From: Escherichia coli
GTDB taxonomy: Bacteria > Pseudomonadota > Gammaproteobacteria > Enterobacterales > Enterobacteriaceae
NCBI RefSeq assembly: GCF_024298765.1
Contig: NZ_CP101210.1
DNA length: 64,000 bases
Reading direction: 5' to 3' (one strand)
The position numbers and the translations under genes were made by a program. The notes beneath the pieces were generated by a model. It was not told the origin of the DNA and made no database searches. It worked only from the letters and a program-made list of their open reading frames with translations. Below, piece by piece: positions 13,912 to 64,000 of this stretch (the first letter of the stretch is position 1; the number at the start of each line of letters is the position of its first letter).

Positions 13912-16900
13912 TGGCTGCACATCATGAAGTGCATTTTGAACAATATATTACCGAGCAGTTGGTGAACAATGGCTGGAAAGAAGGCCATTCCTGCCACTAT
14001 GACCAGCAACGCGCCCTTTACCCGCAAGATGTCATGGATTGGGTAAAGGCCACCCAGCCAGATGCCTGGCACAAACTGAATAAACTGCATGGTGTGAATG
14101 CCGAGCAGGTGCTGTTGGAGCGTTTGGAAAAAGCCCTCTCTTCCCACAAAGCTGGCAGTAAAACAGGTGGCACCATTAATGTGCTGCGTAAAGGCTTTAC
14201 CATTGCAGGTTGCGGCACGATTGCCATGGGCCAACGCAAACCCGAAGATGCGCGCAATGAAGAGCGTATAGCCCGTTATGAGCACAACATTTTGCGCGTG
14301 GTGCGCCAACTGAAATATTGCCCGACTCGCGAGTGGGAAATTGACTTGGTGTTCTTTATCAACGGTCTACCCGTTGCCACCGCCGAGCTAAAAACCGATT
14401 TTACCCAGTCGCTAGAATCGGCGATTGCGCAGTACAAAGAGGATCGTCTGCCCGTTGACCCAAAAACCAAGCGTAAAGAGCCGCTGTTAACCTTTAAACG
14501 CGGTGCAGTGGTACATTTTGCCATGTCTGATACAGAAATCGCCATGGCGACCAAACTGGCGGGAGAAAATACCTATTTTCTGCCCTTCAATAAAGGCCAT
14601 GATGGTTCTACCTCTGATTTGCCCGTACACATCAACTTGCCGGGTGAAGATGGAGAGTATCCGGTCAGCTATTTTTGGCAAGAAATTGCCCAAAAAGATA
14701 ATTGGCTACGCATTTTCTACAGCTTTGTGTATGTCGAAACCAAAGAGGTTGCCGATAGCAATGGCAAGGTTGAGCGTAAGGAAACACAGATTTTTCCGCG
14801 TTATCATCAGTTAGCCGCAGTCAACAAGATGATTGATGATGCCCGCCAGAACGGCGCAGGCATGCAGTATCTTTGTGAGCACAGCGCCGGTTCGGGAAAA
14901 ACCTCTACCATAGCCTGGACGGCCCATGATTTGATTCGTTTACGCAGCACCGATGGTAAAGCGGTCTTTAAATCAGTGATCATTGTGACCGACCGCACCG
15001 TGCTGGATTCGCAGTTGCAAGATGCGGTGCAACAGCTGGATCATCAATATGGGGTGATTAAGGCGATTGATCGCGAAAAGAGCAGCGAGTCGAAATCAAA
15101 ACAGCTGACTGAAGCGCTATTGACTGGCACGCCGATCATTGTAGTGACGATTCAAACCTTCCCATATGCGTTAGAAGCGATTCTGACCAATCAATCTTTG
15201 GCACAAAGTAACTTTGCGGTGATCATCGATGAAGCACACACCTCGCAAACAGGCTCTACAGCCAAAGGGTTACGCGCAGCGCTTACTCTAAACCTTAGCC
15301 CTCAAGAGTTGGAGCAAATGAGCATTGAGGACATTCTTACTAAGGTGCAAGAAGCGCGCGCCATGCCCAAGAACGTTTCGCACTTTGCTTTTACGGCAAC
15401 ACCCAAGCACAGCACCAAGATGTTGTTTGGCCGCCCGAAAGACCCTAACCAACCAGTGTCAGATGACAATCTTCCTGAATCGTTCCACCTCTACACCCAA
15501 CGTCAGGCCATTGATGAGGGTTTTATTCTTGATGTGCTGGAGAATTACACCCACTACGATACAGCCTACAAAATTGGTGAGAACAATCTGGATGAGAAGC
15601 GCGTAGACAGCAAACAAGCTCGCCGCGCGTTGGCGCGCTGGATGTCACTGCACCCAACCACGGTCAGCCAAAAAGTCGAATTTATTATTAAGCACTTCAA
15701 GGCCAATATCGCTCACCTACTGGAAGGTGAAGCCAAAGCCATGGTGGTCACATCGGGCAGGCCACAGGCGGTGAAATACAAGCTTGCTTTTGATAAATAC
15801 ATTAAAAAGCATGGTATTGAAGGTATCCAAGCCTTGGTTGCCTTCTCGGGCAAAGTCCCCGGCAAAGATTTGGGTGATGAAGACAGCCAAGACCCGCTAG
15901 AAATTGATTTCGATAAAGAGTACACCGAGTACAACTTAAACCCAGACACGCACGGGGCTGACCTGCGCCATGAGTTTGAGAAAACCGAATATCGCGTCAT
16001 GTTAGTCGCCAACAAGTTCCAAACGGGCTTTAATCAACCAAAACTGGTTGCCATGTATTTGGATAAGAAAATATCCGATGTAGAAGCGGTGCAAACGCTG
16101 TCTCGCCTAAACCGCACCTATCCAGGCAAAGACACAACCTTCGTGATTGATTTTGTTAACGATCCACAAACCATTCTCAATGCGTTCAAAAAGTACGACA
16201 AAGGCGCGCAGCTTAATGAAGTGCAAGATGTGAACGTCATCTATGACATCAAAGATATTTTGGATGAACAGAACATATACAACCATCAAGATTTAGAGTT
16301 GTTTAAGCAAGCGCGTGGTAAATCGATTCTCGGCCAATCACCTGACAAAAAGCCACACGCGCACAAGAAACTGCTAGCTGCCACACAACGCCCTACCGAT
16401 GTGTTCAACGTTAAGCTCAAAGAGCTGGTTGATGCTGCAAACCATTGGGATCAGCAATACAACAAAGCGCACCTTGCGGGTGATGAAAAAGCGGCGAACT
16501 ACGCAGAATCTCAGCGCAGTGATTTCACCAAGCAGCGCGAAGCACTAATGCGTTTTAAGTCAGATTTAGCTCGATTTGTGAAGCACTATAGCTATATGGC
16601 GCAATTGATTGAGTTTGGTGATCCTGAACTGGAAAACTTTGCCGCGTTTGCTCATTTGCTATCACGTCGATTGAAAGGGGTAACACCAGAAAACATCGAT
16701 CTCAGTGCACTGGTACTAGAAAAATTCAAAATCAAATACGACAAAGAGCCGCTTCCAGAAGCGTTTAATCAGGTACTTGAACCTATCCGCCCCAACTATA
16801 ACGACCCTGCGGATCGTGAACAGGCATTTCTTGCCGATATCATTCGCCGCCTAAACGAACTGTTTGGCGATGTCGGCGACGAACCCGGTCGCCGAAACTT

Positions 16901-55853: not shown

Positions 55854-56327
55854 TTATTCACTTTGTTCATGTTGATTGGGTTTTTCAATGAGGAAAGTTT
55901 CCAGGGTACAATCTCCATTAACCTGTTTCCGCAAAGCAAGTGGCATTTTACCGTTACCAGACCACGTCCTGGTTTCGCCGTTCTCATCCTCAAAGATATA
56001 TTTCGCTTTTCTCACACCGCCTTTGGGTTTTCGTTTGGTTTCCGTTGTCCCTGCAATAGCAGAAACTGGACCCTGCCATTCTTCCGGGTCAAGCCCCACA
56101 GAAACGATGTACTCAAATACCTGTTGACATTTAGTTTCCAGTTCCTTACGTTCAGCCGCTTTTCGTTCAGCATCTTCACGGCGTTCTTCAATAACAGTGT
56201 TGAGCTTTTCCTGCATGTCGAGTAATTGCTCAAAATCAAGTTCGCGTACATACGTGCGTAGTGAACGAATATTCGTCATTGTCCGACTGATGATGCTGTA
56301 TTCTTCTTCTTTAGTCAGTTTGCACAT
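55854..56327 (-). CDS. H-NS family nucleoid-associated protein (island-borne paralogue)
   Basis: 157 aa; C-terminal KYIFEDENGETRTWSGNGKMP matches the H-NS DNA-binding motif; strong RBS AGAGGGG. Confidence 0.75.
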   Translation of the reverse strand: MCKLTKEEEYSIISRTMTNIRSLRTYVRELDFEQLLDMQEKLNTVIEERREDAERKAAERKELETKCQQVFEYIVSVGLDPEEWQGPVSAIAGTTETKRKPKGGVRKAKYIFEDENGETRTWSGNGKMPLALRKQVNGDCTLETFLIEKPNQHEQSE

Positions 56328-56645
56328 AATTCCCCTCTCTTTTGCAATAAACGTGTTTTCTCTGGTGGGTTGATTACCCAGTCTTTTTTACTGTGTCTGA
56401 CATTTTGTACTGTGGTGCAGTTGTAATGCAAACCTTCCGGGCTTCTGGGACACAGCATTTCAGTCCGGGCCCCATCATTACCATTTTGTTGATTCGAAAC
56501 GAAAACCCTCACCAATATCGATCGATTTTACCGATCGATATGATCACATCGATCGGTTGTAACCATTTTACCCTGTCTTTTGCATGGTTTTAAAATAGGC
56601 AACCCTCTTTGTCGGGTAGGGCAAGAACCAACGGAGATGATTGAA

Positions 56646-57383
56646 ATGAAAAAGGTTATTGCGGTTTCAGCGCTTGCAATGGCAGGCATGTTTTCGGCCC
56701 AGACTCTGGCTGATGAGAGCAAAACAGGCTTTTATGTGACCGGTAAAGCCGGTGTTTCTGTTATGTCACTTTCAGAGCAACGTTTCGTTGATGGTGAAGG
56801 GGCATGGGCGGATAAATACAAAGGCAGTGACAAAAGTGATACGGTTTTTGGCGCAGGCCTTGCGGTGGGATACGATTTTTATCAGCACTACAATGTGCCG
56901 GTGCGTACTGAAGTGGAGTTTTATGGCCGCGGTAACGCTGAATCAAAATATCGTCTGAGTTATTGGGAAAGTGCCGGTGGTGCCGAGTTCGATGATGCAC
57001 AGAACAAGCTCAGTGTAAACACGCTGATGCTGAATGCGTATTATGATTTCAGAAACAGCAGTGCATTCACGCCATGGATATCTGCTGGTCTGGGTTATGC
57101 ACGGGTTCATCATAAAACTTCGTACATATATACCGATAACAGCCCGGCAGGCAGTGAAGTTTATTCAGCTTCAGCGTCAAAATACGAAAACAACCTGGCA
57201 TGGAGCCTGGGTGCCGGTGTTAAATACGATGTGACGCAGGATTTCAGCCTTGACCTCAGCTACCGGTATCTGGATGCAGGGGATTCCACTCTGACTTATA
57301 AAGATGAGGATGGTGCTAAATATAAATCCTCTGTTGATGTCAGAAGTAACGAGTTTATGTTAGGTGCAACATATAACTTCTGA
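56646..57383 (+). CDS. outer-membrane beta-barrel protein (OmpA-like/opacity family)
   Basis: Start at ATG 56646; signal peptide MKKVIAVSALAMAGMFSAQTLA; alternating aromatic pattern and C-terminal ...YNF. Confidence 0.6.
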   Translation: MKKVIAVSALAMAGMFSAQTLADESKTGFYVTGKAGVSVMSLSEQRFVDGEGAWADKYKGSDKSDTVFGAGLAVGYDFYQHYNVPVRTEVEFYGRGNAESKYRLSYWESAGGAEFDDAQNKLSVNTLMLNAYYDFRNSSAFTPWISAGLGYARVHHKTSYIYTDNSPAGSEVYSASASKYENNLAWSLGAGVKYDVTQDFSLDLSYRYLDAGDSTLTYKDEDGAKYKSSVDVRSNEFMLGATYNF

Positions 57384-58039
57384 CAGCCATTTCTGCCTGC
57401 GCTTTGGAGCACAGTAAAGTGCAGGTATGACAAATCAATAACAGATATCCTGATGATATTCTCCCTCTGGCAACTAATAATTTCAGATGAATGAAATATA
57501 AATAGAGCAAAAATATTACTTTCGTTGATTTTTTACAGGGGGCAGGTAGCGCGCAGTATGGTTGTCAGTCTGTTAAATGAAAAAGGACTGTTGTTGGGAC
57601 ACGTTGTTTTTTGTCATATCAGCCCTTCCGGAAACAATAAACCGTATTACGAAGGAGGCTCCCGGACATCTGGTTTAAAGTTTGAACATAATCAAATAAA
57701 AATCTGTTGCCGGAGGGCGTAGTTTTGTGGAACTGACAAATGATGTCAGGAGTATTTATATAATTCACTTACACAAGAGTAATACTACAGGTGCAGTGAT
57801 TTATGGTTGACTCAACGAGAAATCGCTCAGCGGAGCGTTTGACTGGATATCGGTAGCGGGATGTCCTTTATGTCATTTTTGCCTTCTGCCGTAGGAACCA
57901 CAACGTGGGCCCAGACCCGTTGCTTCTCCTTCGGACTCTGTGCCGTATCATCACTGCGGAAGTTCCTGAGAAACCACTGTGAGAGCATGTGCTGATTTCT
58001 GGTGTATCCCATAATAGTATCCTTACATCACTGAATACA

Positions 58040-58712
58040 ATTTAATCGTAAGCTCCATCGGCGGCGGCTGACCTGATTTTCCGGTGGGTTTGCCGGATTA
58101 ACCCGGGGAAGGCCTCTGAGTCCGTAACGTTGTTCAGCGACAGGTCAGCGCAGATGATTTCATGTGTTTTACTGTCAACTGCCAGATGCAGCTTACGCCA
58201 TATACGACGGCGTTCCTGGCCATGCTTTTTGACTTTCCACTCGCCTTCACCGAAGACCTTCAGCCCGGTGGAATCAATTACCAGGTGTGCGATTTCACCC
58301 CGGGTGGGCGTTTTGAAACTGATATTAACCGACTTTGCCCGCCTGCTGACACAGCTGTAATCCGGGCAGCGTAGCGGAACGTTCATCAGAGAAAAAATGG
58401 AATCAATAAAGCCCTGCGCAGCGCGCAGGGTCAGCCTGAATACGCGTTTAATGACCAGCACAGTCGTGATGGCAAGGTCAGAATAGCGCTGAGGTCTGCC
58501 TCGTGAAGAAGGTGTTGCTGACTCATACCAGGCCTGAATAGCTTCATCATCCAGCCAGAAAGTTATGGAGCCACGGTTGATGAGGGCTTTATTGTAGGTG
58601 GGCCAGTTGGTGATTTTGAACTTTTGCTTTGCCACGGAACGGTCTGCGTTGTCGGGAAGATACGTGATCTGATCCTTCAACTCAGCAAAAGTTCGATTTA
58701 TTCAACAAAACC
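58040..58712 (-). mobile_element. IS903: IS903, truncated (about 670 of 1057 bp retained)
   Basis: Inverted repeat GATTTATTCAACAAAACC ending at 58712 beside the bla stop; transposase ORF breaks off after ...ADGAYD. Confidence 0.8.
58042..58680 (-). pseudogene. IS903 transposase, C-terminally truncated
   Basis: 212 aa matching the N-terminal two-thirds of IS903 transposase as recalled. Confidence 0.8.
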
Positions 58713-58714
58713 AG

Positions 58715-59608
<894 letters not shown>

Positions 59609-59706
59609 TCAATCCGTGTTACATCAGTATTCCCTAAATTCCACGTGTGTTTTTTATTAGCTTCAAAAATCACTATTTCACGAAGAATTTAGACTGCTTC
59701 TCACAC

Positions 59707-59736
59707 ATTGTAACATTATTTACAACCACCTTTCAA
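59707..59736 (-). promoter_or_regulatory. ISEcp1 outward promoter for blaCTX-M (-35 TTGAAA, -10 TACAAT)
   Basis: Minus strand reads TTGAAA-18 bp-TACAAT between the IS10 insertion and the ISEcp1 right end. Confidence 0.6.
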
Positions 59737-59821
59737 TCATTTTTGATAAATCATTGATTTCATCTTTGCTGCAATGATACTTAATAAACTCTGCAAGTTA
59801 TCCACAGAGCAACACTCAATT

Positions 59822-61150
59822 CTGAGAGATCCCCTCATAATTTCCCCAAAGCGTAACCATGTGTGAATAAATTTTGAGCTAGTAGGGTTGCAGCCACGAG
59901 TAAGTCTTCCCTTGTTATTGTGTAGCCAGAATGCCGCAAAACTTCCATGCCTAAGCGAACTGTTGAGAGTACGTTTCGATTTCTGACTGTGTTAGCCTGG
60001 AAGTGCTTGTCCCAACCTTGTTTCTGAGCATGAACGCCCGCAAGCCAACATGTTAGTTGAAGCATCAGGGCGATTAGCAGCATGATATCAAAACGCTCTG
60101 AGCTGCTCGTTCGGCTATGGCGTAGGCCTAGTCCGTAGGCAGGACTTTTCAAGTCTCGGAAGGTTTCTTCAATCTGCATTCGCTTCGAATAGATATTAAC
60201 AAGTTGTTTGGGTGTTCGAATTTCAACAGGTAAGTTAGTTGCTAGAACCCATGGCTCCTTTGCCGACGCTGAGTAGATTTTAGGTGACGGGTGGTGACAA
60301 TGAGTCCGTGTCGAGCGCTGATTTTTTCGGCCTTTAGAGCGAGATTTATACAATAGAATTTGGCATGAGATTGGATTGCTTTTAGTCAGCCTCTTATAGC
60401 CTAAAGTCTTTGAGTGACTAGATGACATATCATGTAAGTTGCTGATAGGTTTCCAGTTTTCCGCTCCTAGGTCTGCATATTGTACTTTTCCTCTTACTCG
60501 ACTTAACCAGTACCAACCCAGCTTCTCAACGGATTTATACCATGGCACTTTAAAGCCAGCATCACTGACAATGAGCGGTGTGGTGTTACTCGGTAGAATG
60601 CTCGCAAGGTCGGCTAGAAATTGGTCATGAGCTTTCTTTGAACATTGCTCTGAAAGCGGGAACGCTTTCTCATAAAGAGTAACAGAACGACCGTGTAGTG
60701 CGACTGAAGCTCGCAATACCATAAGTCGTTTTTGCTCACGAATATCAGACCAGTCAACAAGTACAATGGGCATCGTATTGCCCGAACAGATAAAGCTAGC
60801 ATGCCAACGGTATACAGCGAGTCGCTCTTTGTGGAGGTGACGATTACCTAACAATCGGTCGATTCGTTTGATGTTATGTTTTGTTCTCGCTTTGGTTGGC
60901 AGGTTACGGCCAAGTTCGGTAAGAGTGAGAGTTTTACAGTCAAGTAATGCGTGGCAAGCCAACGTTAAGCTGTTGAGTCGTTTTAAGTGTAATTCGGGGC
61001 AGAATTGGTAAAGAGAGTCGTGTAAAATATCGAGTTCGCACATCTTGTTGTCTGATTATTGATTTTTCGCGAAACCATTTGATCATATGACAAGATGTGT
61101 ATCCACCTTAACTTAATGATTTTTACCAAAATCATTAGGGGATTCATCAG
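59822..61150 (-). mobile_element. IS10: IS10 (1329 bp) inserted in ISEcp1
   Basis: Ends CTGAGAGATCCCCTCATAATTTCCCC (59822) and CTGATGAATCCCCTAATGATTTTGG (61150); perfect 9-bp direct repeat CACTCAATT at 59813-59821 and 61151-61159. Confidence 0.95.
59835..61043 (-). CDS. IS10 transposase
   Basis: 402-aa ORF matching IS10 transposase as recalled. Confidence 0.9.
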   Translation of the reverse strand: MCELDILHDSLYQFCPELHLKRLNSLTLACHALLDCKTLTLTELGRNLPTKARTKHNIKRIDRLLGNRHLHKERLAVYRWHASFICSGNTMPIVLVDWSDIREQKRLMVLRASVALHGRSVTLYEKAFPLSEQCSKKAHDQFLADLASILPSNTTPLIVSDAGFKVPWYKSVEKLGWYWLSRVRGKVQYADLGAENWKPISNLHDMSSSHSKTLGYKRLTKSNPISCQILLYKSRSKGRKNQRSTRTHCHHPSPKIYSASAKEPWVLATNLPVEIRTPKQLVNIYSKRMQIEETFRDLKSPAYGLGLRHSRTSSSERFDIMLLIALMLQLTCWLAGVHAQKQGWDKHFQANTVRNRNVLSTVRLGMEVLRHSGYTITREDLLVAATLLAQNLFTHGYALGKL

Positions 61151-61177
61151 CACTCAATTTTATTGATGATATTCTTA

Positions 61178-62440
61178 TTATACCAGACATTTTTCATACA
61201 CTCCCTTGTACGGATAGTTTTCCGACAACTTCATGATTACATATCTTGCGGTTTTGATTATTTTTGCTGCAAGAAATACATACTTCAAACGAAAGGTCTT
61301 TATTTGCTGTCTGTATTCTGAAGAGTCCAAGGAATCAAACTTGAACAACAAAAATAGGTTATATGAAAGCATCATCATTTGAAACACGGCTTCATTCGCC
61401 CAAAATGACTTTAGCAAGAGATGACCCACCGCCATGTCGTATTTGGCTTCTTTGATATAGTTTTCAGCATTACCACGCTTTTCATAGTATATAACTACTT
61501 TTTCAGAAAGCAAGGTAGTATTTGTTACAAAGAAAAAGTAGTCGTATTCGGAACCTTCTAAAAGTGATAATTGTGCTCTTTCTTTTTCTGGTTTCAGTAC
61601 GCGAGATACGACAAATCTTCTGTCTTTTTCCCATTTAACTAATTTTGTATACAGTTCTGTAGTTTCTCTACCTTCTTCTCCTTTAACGAATACAATTGAT
61701 GAATTCGTTGCTTGTGAGGTGAGTGTAGAATAACTTTTGGCTTTAATTAAATATTTGCATCCAAGAGATTCTATCGTTTCGATAATTTTTTCATCAAAGT
61801 AGCCACTATCCATTCGAAATAAAATTTCTAAATCGTCTGATTTGATGTTAGCAACAATTTCTTTGATCATTTCCGCAGCACCGTTTGCAGTGTAAGTATT
61901 GCCACTTCTTACAAATCCGGTAACATATGCTTTTAATTCGTCGCAAAATGCAAATTGGATATTGTAGCATCGGTTTCCCAGTTTCTTAGGATTATATCCT
62001 TTTGACGCACCTTCTTGATGACCTTCTACGTTAATTACACTACTATCAATATCAATCGTAATGGATGTCAATTTACTTTTAGTGAGCAGTTTTTTAAAGA
62101 CTTTAAAATTAATGTCTCTAAACATTTGGGTTGTCTTGAAGTTGAAGTTTCCTAGAAACCGTGACACTGTTTCAGGTTCTTTTACGGAAATATCAAACTC
62201 GTTGACGAGGGGATCATTTTGAAGTAGCTTTAGACGTTCTAACTTATCAATGCCAATGAAGTGACCGCAGAGCATGGTCTTTATATGATTCATCTTGATT
62301 TTATTTGTTGAGTCATTATCAAATACGAGGTCATTTTCAATAAAATCAAAAATCCCATTGCTTTTTGCATTCTCAAGGAGCAGAAAAAGACCTGCATTTG
62401 ATGTTAGATTCTTAGCTTTGAAATCAATTTTATTAATCAT
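61178..62440 (-). CDS. tnpA: ISEcp1 transposase
   Basis: 420-aa ORF matching ISEcp1 transposase as recalled. Confidence 0.9.
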   Translation of the reverse strand: MINKIDFKAKNLTSNAGLFLLLENAKSNGIFDFIENDLVFDNDSTNKIKMNHIKTMLCGHFIGIDKLERLKLLQNDPLVNEFDISVKEPETVSRFLGNFNFKTTQMFRDINFKVFKKLLTKSKLTSITIDIDSSVINVEGHQEGASKGYNPKKLGNRCYNIQFAFCDELKAYVTGFVRSGNTYTANGAAEMIKEIVANIKSDDLEILFRMDSGYFDEKIIETIESLGCKYLIKAKSYSTLTSQATNSSIVFVKGEEGRETTELYTKLVKWEKDRRFVVSRVLKPEKERAQLSLLEGSEYDYFFFVTNTTLLSEKVVIYYEKRGNAENYIKEAKYDMAVGHLLLKSFWANEAVFQMMMLSYNLFLLFKFDSLDSSEYRQQIKTFRLKYVFLAAKIIKTARYVIMKLSENYPYKGVYEKCLV

Positions 62441-62627
62441 AATTAGAACCCCTTTTTACTACTTTTCTTACTATTATTTTACCATATATCGAGTCATAAA
62501 AGCTGATAATTTAACATATTTTTGAGCACTTTTCTTTCACCCAATGGGTGAAAGCTGAATTTCGAAGGAATGCATATTTATCAAGGCTTTGATTATGCTT
62601 TTTGAAGTACTGACGTAGAATCTAGGT

Positions 62628-63488
62628 TTGATTGATATCCTTGTTGAATTACAAAATTATGGCGTGGTCAGTCGCTATAATTTGATGAAAAAATACAACA
62701 TCACTGAGCGAACAGCATATCGTGATCTGAATATGCTTTCTCCCTTTATTGAAGCCTGTGGCGATGGAAAATACCGGCTTATTTCGGCAAGAGCAGGAAA
62801 CCAGAGCAAAGAATCACTGCACAAATCTCTGGCCAGGTTACTGGATACTGATGCGATTTTTCCTGAACGGGATGAAGGTTTCTGGCAGAAATTAGAAAAC
62901 AGGGCAACCGAAAGGCATATTCGTGTTCAGTTTCATAACCCTGAGCACACCATCAGGGATGATTTAAGAAAATATCTTGATGTTCTTGAAAAAGCGATCT
63001 GCAACAGTAATGTTTGCCAGATTGCATATGCCGGTAAGACCAGAATCGTTCATCCCTATAAATTAACTAATCAGAGAGGTATATGGTATTTGCTGGCTAC
63101 TGAAGAGAACAAGTTAAAGTCGTTTTCATTAGCTAAAATAAAATGGCTGGATATAAAAAAAGAAAAGTTTGCAAAGAGTGATGAAATCCAGTCACTGGTA
63201 AGTGAGTCATGTGACCCGTGGGTGAGCGACAAAACATTTGATGTTGTGTTGTTCATTTACAGTAATATCGCCCATTATTTTTTGCGACGGGACTTACTTC
63301 CTTACCAGCAATTGCTACACAAACATGACAATGGCATTACGCTGTCATGCAAGGCTGCACATAAAAATCAAATTGTCCCGTTGATTTTATACTGGCTACC
63401 GAATGTTGAAATTATTGAACCAGTATGGCTGAAAGAAGCCGTGTTAACAATGTTAGGAAAATACCTTACTGCTGAGAATGTTTCCTGA
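62628..63488 (+). pseudogene. WYL-domain transcriptional regulator, 5-prime end removed by ISEcp1 insertion
   Basis: HTH (YNITERTAYRDLNML) and WYL motif (RGIWYLLA); ORF begins 2 bp after the ISEcp1 inverted repeat with no ATG. Confidence 0.6.
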
Positions 63489-63536
63489 AATATTTCAGTT
63501 GACTGATGATAAAGCAATCTGTACAGGAGGAAAAGA

Positions 63537-64000
63537 ATGGCGTTACCTTTTATTATTTTGGGTGTGGCTGCCGGCGCTGCGGCATTCGGCGGAAAAAAAG
63601 CTTACGATGGATATCAAAAAAAGTCAGAAGCAGAGGATATCCTCGAAAAAGCAAAAGAGCGTTACGAGGAGCATAAAGAAAAATTTGAGCAGGCTGAAGC
63701 TCAGACATCATCAAAATTAACAACGCTCGGAAATAAAGAGCTTGAGATTGGTAAAGATTTCAGTGAGTTCGACAGGATTGCTGCTGAGCTCCTGGCGCGT
63801 CTGGAAAAAGAGGGCAATAAAGACCTGAAACTGAGTGTCCCGCAACATAACATCAATAAGATTCAGAACCTGGCCATTTCAGCGACAGAATATCTCAGTA
63901 CGGTCGTTGCTGCCGGAGTTTCCGGGGCTGCTGCGGGTTTTGCTGTGTATAGCGGAGTGATGGCATTTGCTGCGGCTTCTACAGGTACACCCATTGCAGC
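63537..64000 (+). CDS. hypothetical protein (N-terminal hydrophobic segment, coiled coil), partial, runs off window
   Basis: AGGAGG RBS then ATG at 63537; open frame to window end (MALPFIILGVAAGAAAFGG...); absent from ORF track because no stop. Confidence 0.5.
   Translation, partial: MALPFIILGVAAGAAAFGGKKAYDGYQKKSEAEDILEKAKERYEEHKEKFEQAEAQTSSKLTTLGNKELEIGKDFSEFDRIAAELLARLEKEGNKDLKLSVPQHNINKIQNLAISATEYLSTVVAAGVSGAAAGFAVYSGVMAFAAASTGTPIA

What the first reader, a model, noticed from the sequence alone, without database searches (positions are those of the whole stretch)
62628..64000. WYL regulator followed by an unknown membrane/coiled-coil gene at the window edge
WYL-domain regulators frequently control adjacent defence systems. 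The downstream gene has a strong RBS, an N-terminal hydrophobic segment and a coiled-coil region, and continues beyond the window. A further defence island may extend to the right.
Basis: inference. Interest (0 to 1): 0.4.

Follow-up and report, generated by a model that had tools for sequence, protein, structure and literature searches.

The report
WYL-controlled membrane HNH nuclease cassette
The window ends inside a mobile four-gene operon (a WYL regulator, a membrane protein, a membrane-anchored HNH nuclease and a small cysteine-rich protein) that is most likely an uncharacterised anti-phage or anti-plasmid system, and here an ISEcp1-blaCTX-M-14 insertion has cut its regulator gene off from its promoter.

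Summary
62628-63488 encodes an HTH-WYL-WCX regulator. A gene with an AGGAGG ribosome-binding site starts at 63537, opens with a hydrophobic segment and long helices, and runs off the window.

Two things were missed:
- The WYL ORF is a remnant. A 4.8-kb ISEcp1-IS10-blaCTX-M-14-IS903 unit (57843-62626, TTTGA duplication) split the 298-codon gene after codon 13. The promoter, a conserved operator (ACTGACA-N5-TGTCAG) and the 5' stub were left at 57732-57842.
- Near-identical E. coli genomes show what lies to the right. It is not a further island but the rest of one operon: A (359 aa), B (523 aa) and C (88 aa).

B has an invariant Cas9-like HNH motif, a beta-beta-alpha-Me fold and a C-terminal membrane module. 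C is a CxxCxxCC protein with eight invariant cysteines.

In 80 species-level loci, A adjoins B in 78 and C in 74. The gene order is permuted in Firmicutes. A WYL gene sits directly upstream in 40 of 69 testable loci.

The cassette lies in islands, ICE-like regions and plasmids, often beside BREX, Wadjet, Kiwa, Hachiman or restriction-modification systems. Only remote PADLOC candidate models match, and no paper or solved structure was found.

Best reading: a WYL-repressed membrane nuclease defence cassette, unvalidated. Interest is moderate.

The parts
57732..57749 (+). Probable operator of the WYL regulator: palindrome ACTGACA-AATGA-TGTCAG, 54-71 nt upstream of the original start codon
   Evidence: Perfect 6-bp arms. 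The arms are invariant and the 5-nt spacer varies in six Enterobacterales species whose flanks average 68% column identity. Binding has not been tested.
57759..57764 (+). TATAAT, probable -10 box of the operon's native promoter
   Evidence: ATAAT is invariant at a fixed distance of 10 nt after the palindrome in the six-species alignment; sequence checked. Promoter function is inferred.
57803..57842 (+). Orphaned 5' stub of the WYL gene (13 codons plus one base), ending in the left copy of the target-site duplication TTTGA (57838-57842)
   Evidence: Collinear with L002 up to position 15014; sequences.
57843..62626 (-). ISEcp1 transposition unit that split the WYL gene. Components: IS903 remnant (58042-58680), blaCTX-M-14 (58715-59590), IS10/ISVsa5 (about 59822-61154), ISEcp1 tnpA (61178-62440), ISEcp1 left inverted repeat ending at 62626
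   Evidence: ORFs. RefSeq annotation of near-identical records. Absent from 368 of the 371 E. coli genomes that carry the locus. Flanked by TTTGA repeats. IS10 extent.
62627..62631 (.). Right copy of the 5-bp target-site duplication TTTGA
   Evidence: the junction is compared with the uninterrupted locus.
62628..63488 (+). 3' 286 codons of the 298-codon HTH-WYL-WCX regulator gene. Annotated in RefSeq as an intact 286-aa 'helix-turn-helix transcriptional regulator' (WP_167804447.1)
   Evidence: The TTG start lies inside the target-site duplication, and the only purine-rich run (AGG) is 1 nt upstream, so translation is doubtful (inference).
63525..63530 (+). Shine-Dalgarno AGGAGG of gene A
   Evidence: 6-nt spacing to the ATG.
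63537..64000 (+). First 154 codons of gene A (359 aa in full, WP_001207396.1). Layout: N-terminal membrane helix, long helical stalk, then the start of the near-invariant Gly/Ala-rich membrane region. Genes B (523 aa, membrane HNH nuclease) and C (88 aa, CxxCxxCC) follow beyond the window
   Evidence: Continuation read from L001/L002/L015.

Best explanation
The finding is the left end of a horizontally mobile operon: regulator, A, B, C.

Shown by the evidence:
- The regulator is an HTH-WYL-WCX protein. Its gene is preceded by a conserved palindrome that overlaps the promoter.
- A is an inner-membrane protein with an N-terminal anchor, a long helical stalk and an almost invariant Gly/Ala-rich membrane segment.
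- B has an N-terminal domain with the fold and invariant catalytic motif of an HNH (His-Me finger) nuclease. This is followed by a coiled coil, a membrane hairpin module and a C-terminal helical domain.
- C is a small protein with eight invariant cysteines (CxxCxxCC/YkgJ family). Its start codon overlaps B's stop codon.
- A, B and C travel together across Proteobacteria and Firmicutes.

Inferred:
- The operon is an anti-phage or anti-plasmid defence system.
- The WYL protein represses the operon at the palindrome until a signal (for WYL proteins, typically nucleic-acid or damage derived) relieves repression.
- A, B and C form an inner-membrane complex that keeps the cytoplasmic HNH domain away from the chromosome.
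- That complex lets the nuclease cut DNA arriving at the membrane. If it is unleashed, it may instead cut host DNA and abort the infection.
- C supplies a metal or redox cofactor, or a control function.

In this strain the ISEcp1-blaCTX-M-14 insertion removed the promoter, the operator and the first 12 codons. The regulator is probably dead and A-B-C are no longer under native control. Whether they are silent or transcribed by read-through is unknown.
For: Operon structure
- Intergenic gaps are 48 and 46 nt, and the B and C reading frames overlap by 4 nt.

Conservation
- In 80 species-level loci, A is adjacent to B in 78 and C in 74.
- The order is A-B-C in 70 loci and B-C-A in 8.
- A WYL gene is directly upstream in 40 of 69 testable loci.

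Nuclease assignment for B
- D110, H111, N140, T144, N149 and K152 are invariant in 76 of 76 full-length homologues.
- The motif LDHIxS...SNLxxT...NxSK resembles the Cas9 HNH motif. The resemblance is my reading of the sequence, not a tool result.
- The AlphaFold N-terminal domain has pLDDT above 90.
- The top Foldseek PDB hit is the NmeCas9 HNH domain.
- Sub-threshold Pfam GmrSD_C hits occur in two members.

Membrane location and topology of B
- Hydrophobic segments lie at about 305-330, 365-393 and 397-423.
- B has no signal peptide before its 240-residue N-terminal domain.
- Variant P0372 needs one extra membrane helix to reach its periplasmic OmpA-like domain. This implies a cytoplasmic C-terminus for the core.

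Defence character
- A matches PADLOC PDC-M09A (3.5e-22) and B matches PDC-M40B (1.3e-42).
- PADLOC PDC models are candidates found embedded in known defence loci (10.1101/2024.09.26.614923).
- Neighbours include BrxR+BREX or Wadjet in V. cholerae.
- Neighbours in Morganellaceae include Kiwa, BrxR+type I restriction-modification, PvuRts1I-like, Hachiman and ArdA.
- Neighbours in Pseudomonas include Dcm/Vsr, DndB and PDDEXK_4.
- Neighbours in E. coli include type I restriction-modification, an AriA-like ATPase and a PD-Lambda-2_B-like protein.
- A Klebsiella plasmid carries DUF262 nearby.

Mobility
- The E. coli copy sits in an island at tRNA-Phe.
- The locus is in 371 of 5426 complete E. coli genomes and 69 plasmid records.
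- Cassette GC is 44%.
- In other species it is inserted between housekeeping genes.

Regulator and operator
-.
- WYL regulators of defence operons are established (Picton 2022 and Blankenchip 2022, cited through PMC12409362).

Precedent
- A membrane-tethered nuclease that cuts injected phage DNA exists: SNIPE (10.1101/2025.11.03.685801).
Against: - No experiment exists. I found no paper naming these proteins, PDC-M09 or PDC-M40.
- The PADLOC matches are remote (77 and 144 bits) and come from two different candidate systems, so PADLOC would not call a system here.
- Many loci sit among housekeeping genes. Only about 11 of 136 nearest neighbours carry restriction or defence Pfam domains, and I had no background control.
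- About 40% of loci lack an adjacent WYL gene.
- An A+B pair occurs in Aeromonas jumbo phages, which a pure host-defence role does not predict.
- Complex formation, the trigger, the nuclease target and the role of C are all inference.
Confidence: 0.55

Rival explanations
1. Abortive infection through the membrane. A, with its invariant glycine-zipper-like segment, is the effector and forms a pore or remodels the membrane when triggered. The HNH domain of B would be secondary, acting as a sensor of DNA or a second effector.
Confidence: 0.15
2. Not immunity but a selfish or competitive module of mobile elements: an addiction (toxin-antitoxin-like) cassette, or an entry-exclusion function that stabilises islands, plasmids and jumbo phages.
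For: The cassette is carried on islands, ICE-like regions, 69 plasmid records and four jumbo phages. It combines a potentially toxic nuclease with a small tightly coupled partner (C) that could act as an antidote.
Against: Several loci are single insertions between housekeeping genes with no mobile-element genes nearby. C is absent in some lineages that keep A and B, namely Snodgrassella and the phages. A three-gene membrane architecture under a WYL regulator is atypical for toxin-antitoxin modules. Exclusion and defence overlap in practice.
Confidence: 0.12
3. A physiological DNA-damage, DNA-uptake or envelope-stress function. Some WYL regulators (DriD, PafBC) control damage responses, and membrane His-Me nucleases (EndA type) process DNA during uptake.
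Against: The locus is present in only 371 of 5426 E. coli genomes and about 170 of 100,044 species representatives, which is far too patchy for a core function. The HNH domain precedes the first membrane segment without a signal peptide, so it should face the cytoplasm, unlike uptake nucleases. The cassette is not linked to competence or repair genes.
Confidence: 0.1
4. Chance adjacency: the WYL gene and the downstream gene are unrelated neighbours in a mosaic island.
For: The island is mosaic and rich in insertion sequences. The cassette exists without a WYL gene in Aeromonas and Snodgrassella.
Against: The 48-nt gap contains no promoter-like site. A WYL gene is directly upstream on the same strand in 40 of 69 loci across classes, including divergent WYL lineages. 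A conserved operator and -10 box lie upstream of the WYL gene rather than upstream of A.
Confidence: 0.03

Closest known systems
WYL-domain regulators of defence operons (BrxR of BREX, CapW of CBASS) and the damage-response regulator DriD
   Same: It shares the HTH + WYL + WCX architecture. It sits first in an operon carried on defence islands. A palindromic site overlaps its own promoter. BrxR genes occur a few kb away in the Vibrio and Morganellaceae loci.
   Different: It does not match the BrxR-specific Pfam models (WHD_BrxR, BrxR_CTD), which the neighbouring true BrxR genes do match. Similarity to solved WYL proteins is only weak (E 0.04-0.16). The ligand and the direction of regulation are untested. 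In this window the gene is truncated.
SNIPE (membrane-bound nuclease that cuts phage DNA during injection; bioRxiv 10.1101/2025.11.03.685801)
   Same: It uses the same concept: a nuclease domain facing the cytoplasm and tethered to the inner membrane, which would keep it off the chromosome.
   Different: SNIPE is one protein with a single N-terminal membrane helix, DUF4041 and a C-terminal GIY-YIG domain. Here there are three proteins, and the nuclease is an N-terminal HNH followed by a multi-helix membrane module. No DUF4041 or GIY-YIG match was found. This is an analogy only.
PADLOC phage-defence candidates PDC-M09 (component A) and PDC-M40 (component B)
   Same: These are the only library models that recognise A (3.5e-22, full length) and B (1.3e-42, positions 19-436 of 547). 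Like them, the cassette is found beside known systems.
   Different: The scores are those of distant relatives. The two hits belong to different candidate systems. No M09B or M40A partner is matched. C is not represented. Neither candidate has published validation that I could find.
Eleos (LeoA/LeoBC bacterial dynamin-like defence system)
   Same: A homologues match the C-terminal stalk/paddle part of the LeoBC model. Both are helical membrane-inserting proteins.
   Different: No GTPase domain is present anywhere in the cassette. The match is partial and may be compositional.
Zorya and Kiwa (membrane-embedded sensors coupled to DNA-targeting components)
   Same: The logic is shared: an inner-membrane complex with long helical parts plus a DNA-acting component. 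One B variant carries an OmpA-like peptidoglycan-binding domain, as ZorB does. Kiwa lies next to the cassette in Morganellaceae.
   Different: There is no homology to ZorA-D or KwaA/B in the PADLOC scan. Here the nuclease is itself the membrane protein.

Membership tests
HTH-WYL-WCX transcription regulators | WYL domain followed by a WCX C-terminal extension | tested here: met
   Pfam WYL 36.9 bits (cut-off 21.8); WCX 32 bits (cut-off 23.9). PADLOC WYL models at 2.6e-22 and 3.6e-20.
HTH-WYL-WCX transcription regulators | N-terminal (winged) helix-turn-helix | tested here: inconclusive
   HTH_11 at 20.9 bits against a cut-off of 25, and HTH_DeoR at 19.3 against 21, at residues 12-50 of the intact protein. 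The window copy starts at residue 13.
HTH-WYL-WCX transcription regulators | Binds a palindromic operator at its own promoter and responds to a ligand | not testable with these tools
   Only a phylogenetic footprint is available: ACTGACA-N5-TGTCAG with invariant arms in six species.
BrxR family (sensu stricto) | WHD_BrxR and BrxR_CTD domains | tested here: not met
   Neither model appears at E up to 0.1. The true BrxR neighbours in L009 and L012 carry both. Identity to the L012 BrxR is 18%.
HNH / His-Me finger nucleases (protein B) | Catalytic His in a D-H dyad, with structural and metal-binding Asn residues | tested here: met
   D110, H111, N140, N149 and K152 are invariant in 76 of 76 homologues; N136 in 75 of 76. 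They are also kept in the phage homologue, except N136.
HNH / His-Me finger nucleases (protein B) | Beta-beta-alpha-Me fold | tested here: met
HNH / His-Me finger nucleases (protein B) | Match to a curated HNH family model | tested here: not met
   No Pfam HNH model matches, even at E up to 10 on the isolated domain. Only GmrSD_C appears, at 0.013 and below cut-off; it reaches 0.00096 in the relative P0287.
HNH / His-Me finger nucleases (protein B) | Metal-dependent nuclease activity | not testable with these tools
   Needs biochemistry.
CxxCxxCC / YkgJ cysteine-cluster proteins (protein C) | PF03692 match with conserved cysteines | tested here: met
   25.3 bits against a cut-off of 23. Eight cysteines are invariant in 72-74 of 74 homologues. 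The Klebsiella plasmid copy is annotated as YkgJ family.
PADLOC PDC-M09 or PDC-M40 systems | All components of one candidate system present together | tested here: not met
   A hits only M09A and B hits only M40B. No M09B or M40A match appears at E up to 0.1.
Eleos (LeoA/LeoBC) | Dynamin-type GTPase domain | tested here: not met
   No GTPase or Dynamin_N domain is found in A, B or C. Only partial LeoBC/LeoA stalk matches appear.
SNIPE | Single membrane helix + DUF4041 + GIY-YIG nuclease | tested here: not met
   No such domains were found.
Methyl-accepting chemotaxis proteins (database label of A) | MCP signalling domain | tested here: not met
   No Pfam or NCBIfam match for A.
ATP:cob(I)alamin adenosyltransferases (database label of B) | Cob(I)alamin adenosyltransferase domain | tested here: not met
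   Pfam gives 0 families. NCBIfam gives only a far sub-threshold FtsW hit (20 bits against 337.5).
Anti-phage defence systems in general | Experimentally shown protection against phage or plasmids | not testable with these tools
   No publication was found.
Anti-phage defence systems in general | Recurrent location beside known defence genes | tested here: inconclusive
   The association is strong in five lineages. Overall, only about 11 of 136 nearest neighbours carry restriction or defence domains, and there was no background control.

The most novel reading that the evidence does not exclude
A, B and C form a previously undescribed type of inner-membrane immune complex. An HNH nuclease is built into the membrane, partnered with a dynamin-paddle-like glycine-zipper protein and an eight-cysteine metal protein, and placed under a WYL repressor. 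It would destroy DNA at the point of entry, or kill the cell, by a mechanism unrelated in sequence to SNIPE, Shield, Zorya or Kiwa. The family is broad: about 800 clusters at 50% identity with E up to 1e-10, spread from Proteobacteria to Firmicutes, with copies captured by jumbo phages.
Probability: 0.4. Interest if true: 0.7.

Novelty: new variant of a known kind. Interest (0 to 1): 0.5.

Why it matters
If the cassette is a working defence system, it adds a compact, widespread membrane-nuclease architecture to bacterial immunity. It offers clear handles for study: one catalytic histidine, a defined operator and a small metal protein. It would also turn two PADLOC candidates into a testable family.

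It corrects two misleading database names ('chemotaxis protein', 'cobalamin adenosyltransferase') that already appear in a published GWAS table (PMC12987596). It also adds a gene missing from RefSeq E. coli annotation.

The window itself shows a resistance transposon (ISEcp1-blaCTX-M-14) landing in the regulator of a probable immune operon. That is a natural experiment on how the spread of resistance genes can rewire phage defence in poultry E. coli.

Tried and rejected
- Translating gene A from 63538 gave the wrong frame; corrected to 63537.
- Sequence searches of the PDB found nothing usable for A, B or C. The regulator gave only weak DriD-like hits.
- PHROGs gave no match for A, B, C, the phage homologues or the Vibrio TerB-like protein.
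- NCBIfam gave nothing meaningful.
- The consensus promoter scan found nothing convincing between ISEcp1 and gene A: one 9-of-12 match against 4.2 expected by chance. The expression state in this strain stays open.
- A pattern scan of IMG/VR found no viral copies. The divergent jumbo-phage copies would escape those patterns.
- Literature searches for PDC-M09/M40, the WP accessions, CxxCxxCC plus defence, and the database names found no functional study.
- Rejected: that the cassette is SNIPE, Eleos, BrxR-BREX, a chemotaxis receptor or a cobalamin enzyme (see the membership table).
- Rejected: that more defence genes lie to the right in this island.
- The neighbour scans use crude longest-ORF calls and report only family counts. 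I treat them as qualitative.
Full report
**What is in the window**

The ORF at 62628-63488 (+, 286 aa, TTG start) and an open frame from 63537 to the window edge are both present.

The full-length form of the first protein matches:
- Pfam WYL (36.9 bits, cut-off 21.8) and WCX (32 bits, cut-off 23.9);
- an N-terminal HTH just under threshold;
- PADLOC WYL models at 2.6e-22.

The second gene has AGGAGG six bases before its ATG. It begins MALPFIILGVAAGAAAFGGKK, followed by a charged helical stretch.

**The regulator gene is a remnant**

Megablast against 5,426 complete E. coli genomes finds the locus in 371. In 368 of them the match begins at window position 62626. Only three genomes, all from chickens in China, continue leftwards into ISEcp1.

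In an uninterrupted genome the gene is 298 codons long (WP_000228490.1) and starts MVDSTRNRSAER-LIDILV....

In the window:
- The first 40 bases of the gene lie at 57803-57842.
- The unit 57843-62626 follows. On the minus strand it carries an IS903 remnant, blaCTX-M-14, an inserted IS10 and ISEcp1.
- The gene resumes at 62627.
- TTTGA is duplicated at both junctions, and the ISEcp1 left inverted repeat (CCTAGATTCTACGT on the minus strand) ends at 62626.

RefSeq annotates the 286-codon remainder as an intact protein. Its TTG start lies inside the duplication and has no properly spaced ribosome-binding site. I infer that the regulator is inactive or poorly made.

**Beyond the window**

Near-identical records (99.99% identity over 17 kb to strain ECJXMCRH7) give the continuation:
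- A, 359 aa (WP_001207396.1).
- B, 523 aa, after a 46-nt gap (WP_001100182.1, named 'ATP--cob(I)alamin adenosyltransferase').
- C, an unannotated 88-codon ORF whose start overlaps B's stop by 4 nt.

After these come a 65-aa membrane protein, a phosphoethanolamine transferase, a TPR protein, IS1 remnants, a raffinose operon, an integrase and tRNA-Phe next to dcuA-cutA-dsbD. Of these, the phosphoethanolamine transferase and the TPR protein were scanned and match no PADLOC model.

So no further defence island lies to the right. In sister strains the left side carries a type I restriction-modification system, an AriA/PDC-M55A-like ATPase and a PD-Lambda-2_B-like regulator. In this window's lineage the left side has a sucrose operon and an H-NS-like gene instead.

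**Protein B**

Pfam and NCBIfam give nothing, so the database name has no basis.

An alignment of 32 homologues shows an invariant block LDHxxSA.EIH.D.GR.LA...G..LAN..SNL..T....N..K. Over 76 full-length homologues from 80 species-level loci, D94, Y96, D110, H111, D121, N140, T144, N149 and K152 are invariant, and N136 is kept in 75. By my reading, the pattern resembles the HNH motif of Cas9.

Structural evidence:
- AlphaFold gives pLDDT above 90 for residues about 60-220.
- The best Foldseek PDB hit is the NmeCas9 HNH domain (probability 0.87, E 0.34).
- Sub-threshold GmrSD_C matches, another His-Me nuclease family, appear in two members.

Each line is modest but they agree. B carries a His-Me finger nuclease under strong purifying selection.

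Downstream of the nuclease domain come a coiled coil, hydrophobic helices at about 305-330, 365-393 and 397-423, and a helical C-terminal domain. The 240-residue N-terminal domain has no signal peptide, so it should be cytoplasmic. In variant P0372 one extra membrane helix separates the B-like core from a C-terminal OmpA-like domain, which argues that the core's C-terminus is cytoplasmic too.

**Protein A**

A has no Pfam family and no relative with a solved structure.

Its layout is an N-terminal membrane helix followed by KK, long helices (3-91 and 190-274 in the model), and a Gly/Ala-rich segment between them. That segment is almost invariant across Enterobacterales, Vibrio, Photobacterium, Gilliamella and Pseudomonas.

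**Protein C**

C passes the Pfam CxxCxxCC threshold (25.3 bits against 23). It has eight cysteines conserved in 72-74 of 74 homologues. It is uncalled in several assemblies, including V. cholerae and RefSeq E. coli, but is annotated as YkgJ family on a Klebsiella plasmid.

**The three genes are one unit**

A profile scan of one genome per species (100,044 genomes) found 170 loci encoding a B relative. The best 80 were analysed with local HMMs:
- A is adjacent to B in 78. At least one of the two exceptions (L073) lies at a contig start, where the upstream side cannot be read.
- C is adjacent in 74.
- The order is A-B-C in 70 loci and B-C-A in 8 (Firmicutes, Desulfovibrio, Rhodospirillales).
- A WYL gene lies directly upstream on the same strand in 40 of 69 testable loci. 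Others have one nearby or divergently oriented.

The WYL proteins are not all orthologous. Identity to the E. coli protein is 36% in Morganellaceae and 29% in Sphaerotilus, but only 16-19% in P. fulva and V. cholerae. The pairing therefore seems to have arisen more than once.

The B family comprises 1,105 clusters at 50% identity with E up to 1e-3 and 802 with E up to 1e-10.

**Regulatory site**

Seventy bases upstream of the original ATG lies ACTGACA-AATGA-TGTCAG (57732-57749), followed 10 nt later by TATAAT.

In E. coli, three Citrobacter species, an unnamed Enterobacterales isolate and Pectobacterium fontis, the arms and the ATAAT are invariant. The spacer and flanks vary, with 68% mean column identity.

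This is the footprint expected of a dimeric HTH protein binding over its own promoter. I infer autorepression, as established for BrxR and CapW (references listed in PMC12409362). Binding is untested. In the window this site is now 4.8 kb away from the genes it controlled.

**Context**

| Lineage | Arrangement and neighbours |
|---|---|
| V. cholerae | WYL, TerB-like, A, B, C, beside BrxR+BREX or BrxR+Wadjet |
| Morganellaceae | Beside Kiwa, BrxR+type I restriction-modification, a PvuRts1I-like enzyme, Hachiman, ArdA and an integrase |
| P. fulva | Beside Dcm/Vsr, DndB, DUF3987 and PDDEXK_4 |
| Klebsiella IncFIB plasmid | Near a DUF262 gene; the WYL gene is again cut by an IS element |
| Aeromonas, Sphaerotilus, Snodgrassella | A lone insertion between housekeeping genes |

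Among 136 nearest-neighbour ORFs of the 80 loci, the recurrent families include PDDEXK_4 (4), GmrSD (3), ResIII (2), BrxL and McrBC. PADLOC recurrent hits include PDC-S26, HEC-05/06 and SspE. Many ordinary genes are present too. I had no background control, so this is suggestive only.

An A+B pair with the HNH motif intact, but without C or WYL, occurs in four Aeromonas jumbo phages. A pattern scan of IMG/VR found none.

**Comparison with what is known**

PADLOC 'PDC' models are candidates found embedded in known defence loci. Some have been validated, but not M09 or M40 (10.1101/2024.09.26.614923).

Our A and B hit components of two different candidates at distant-relative scores, so the cassette is not a member of either as defined.

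It is not SNIPE, which is a single protein with one membrane helix, DUF4041 and GIY-YIG. It is not Eleos, because it has no GTPase. Its regulator is not a BrxR in the strict sense.

No paper mentions the accessions or these candidates. The only literature trace is a GWAS table that lists 'WYL domain-containing protein', 'chemotaxis protein', 'cobalamin adenosyltransferase' and rafY as chicken-associated E. coli genes. That list describes this island (PMC12987596).

**Mechanism**

Shown: operon structure, conservation of the trio, the invariant nuclease motif and fold, membrane segments, the cysteine cluster, the regulator type and the conserved palindrome.

Inferred:
1. The WYL protein represses at the palindrome and is relieved by an infection- or damage-derived signal.
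2. A, B and C assemble in the inner membrane.
3. The cytoplasmic HNH domain, kept at the membrane and away from the nucleoid, cuts DNA entering the cell, by analogy with SNIPE. Alternatively it cuts host DNA as an abortive response.
4. C provides a metal or redox cofactor, or a control function.

I put 0.55 on the general statement (a WYL-controlled defence cassette with a nuclease effector) and less on any single step. The rivals are a membrane-pore abortive mechanism centred on A, a selfish mobile-element module, a physiological DNA or envelope function, and chance adjacency. The last is essentially excluded by the co-occurrence data.

**State in this strain**

A and B are identical in protein accession to those of uninterrupted strains, so the effector genes are intact. 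Their promoter, operator and regulator are not.

No convincing promoter lies between ISEcp1 and gene A. The operon may be silent, or expressed without control by read-through. Only RNA data can tell.

**Limits**

All functional statements are computational. The fold scores are modest, the model of A is poor in its membrane part, and the neighbour analysis is crude.

Noticed in passing
window 57843-62626: A chromosomal ISEcp1-blaCTX-M-14-IS903 transposition unit with an IS10 (ISVsa5-like) copy inserted between ISEcp1 and bla, flanked by a TTTGA duplication. Exactly this junction occurs in only 3 of 5,426 complete E. coli genomes, all from chickens in China (ECJXMCRH7, CM2, EC17CM2). In CM2 the IS10 transposase is frameshifted.
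   Followed up: partly
L002 18606-18872 (the same ORF in L001 and L015); L009 10817-11107: Gene C (88-96 aa, CxxCxxCC, eight invariant cysteines, start overlapping the stop of B) is not annotated in the RefSeq E. coli records and was not called in the V. cholerae assemblies. It is conserved in 74 of 80 loci.
   Followed up: yes
beyond the window; L002 15912-16991 and 17038-18609: The database names 'chemotaxis protein' (A) and 'ATP--cob(I)alamin adenosyltransferase' (B) have no domain support. They have spread to hundreds of records, to a phage genome and to a published GWAS table (PMC12987596).
   Followed up: yes
L019 3979-6575 (Aeromonas phage LAh10; also phages D3, D6, D9): Jumbo phages of Aeromonas encode an adjacent A-like (34% identity) and B-like (30% identity) pair with the HNH motif kept, but no C and no WYL gene. 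Their role in a phage is unexplained.
   Followed up: partly
L020 6190-7738 (Klebsiella pneumoniae IncFIB plasmid NZ_CP031815.1): The WYL gene of the plasmid-borne cassette is also truncated, here to 117 aa by an IS3-family element. This is a second independent IS hit in the regulator. Whether regulator loss is selected was not examined. Thirty-nine Klebsiella plasmid records carry B.
   Followed up: no
L085, L087, L089, L092, L095, L096, L099, L100: In Firmicutes, Desulfovibrio and Pararhodospirillum the same three genes occur in the order B-C-A instead of A-B-C.
   Followed up: partly
protein P0372 (817 aa, metagenomic): A B-like protein is extended by an extra domain, one membrane helix and a C-terminal OmpA-like peptidoglycan-binding domain. 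Other relatives are 870-880 aa with unassigned C-terminal extensions.
   Followed up: partly
L009 7606-7998 (V. cholerae): A 130-aa gene with a faint TerB match is inserted between the WYL gene and A in the Vibrio version of the cassette. That version lies between a large helicase-containing locus and BrxR+BREX or BrxR+Wadjet.
   Followed up: no
L003 10072-12336 and other Pseudomonas loci: A PDDEXK_4 nuclease gene and two unknown genes follow C directly in Pseudomonas. PDDEXK_4 is the nearest downstream neighbour in 4 of the 80 loci. It could be an added module or a separate system.
   Followed up: no
window 55854-57383: An H-NS-family gene (55854-56327, minus strand) and an OmpW/beta-barrel outer-membrane protein gene (56580-57383) lie just left of the operon's promoter. 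Upstream of 56566 the window diverges from strains W2-5 and CM2: it carries a sucrose PTS operon where they carry a type I restriction-modification system plus an AriA-like ATPase.
   Followed up: partly
window 62627-64000; L002 14967-18872: The cassette has low GC (44% overall, 40% for the WYL gene) compared with typical E. coli, consistent with horizontal acquisition. The whole island sits at tRNA-Phe next to dcuA-cutA-dsbD.
   Followed up: partly
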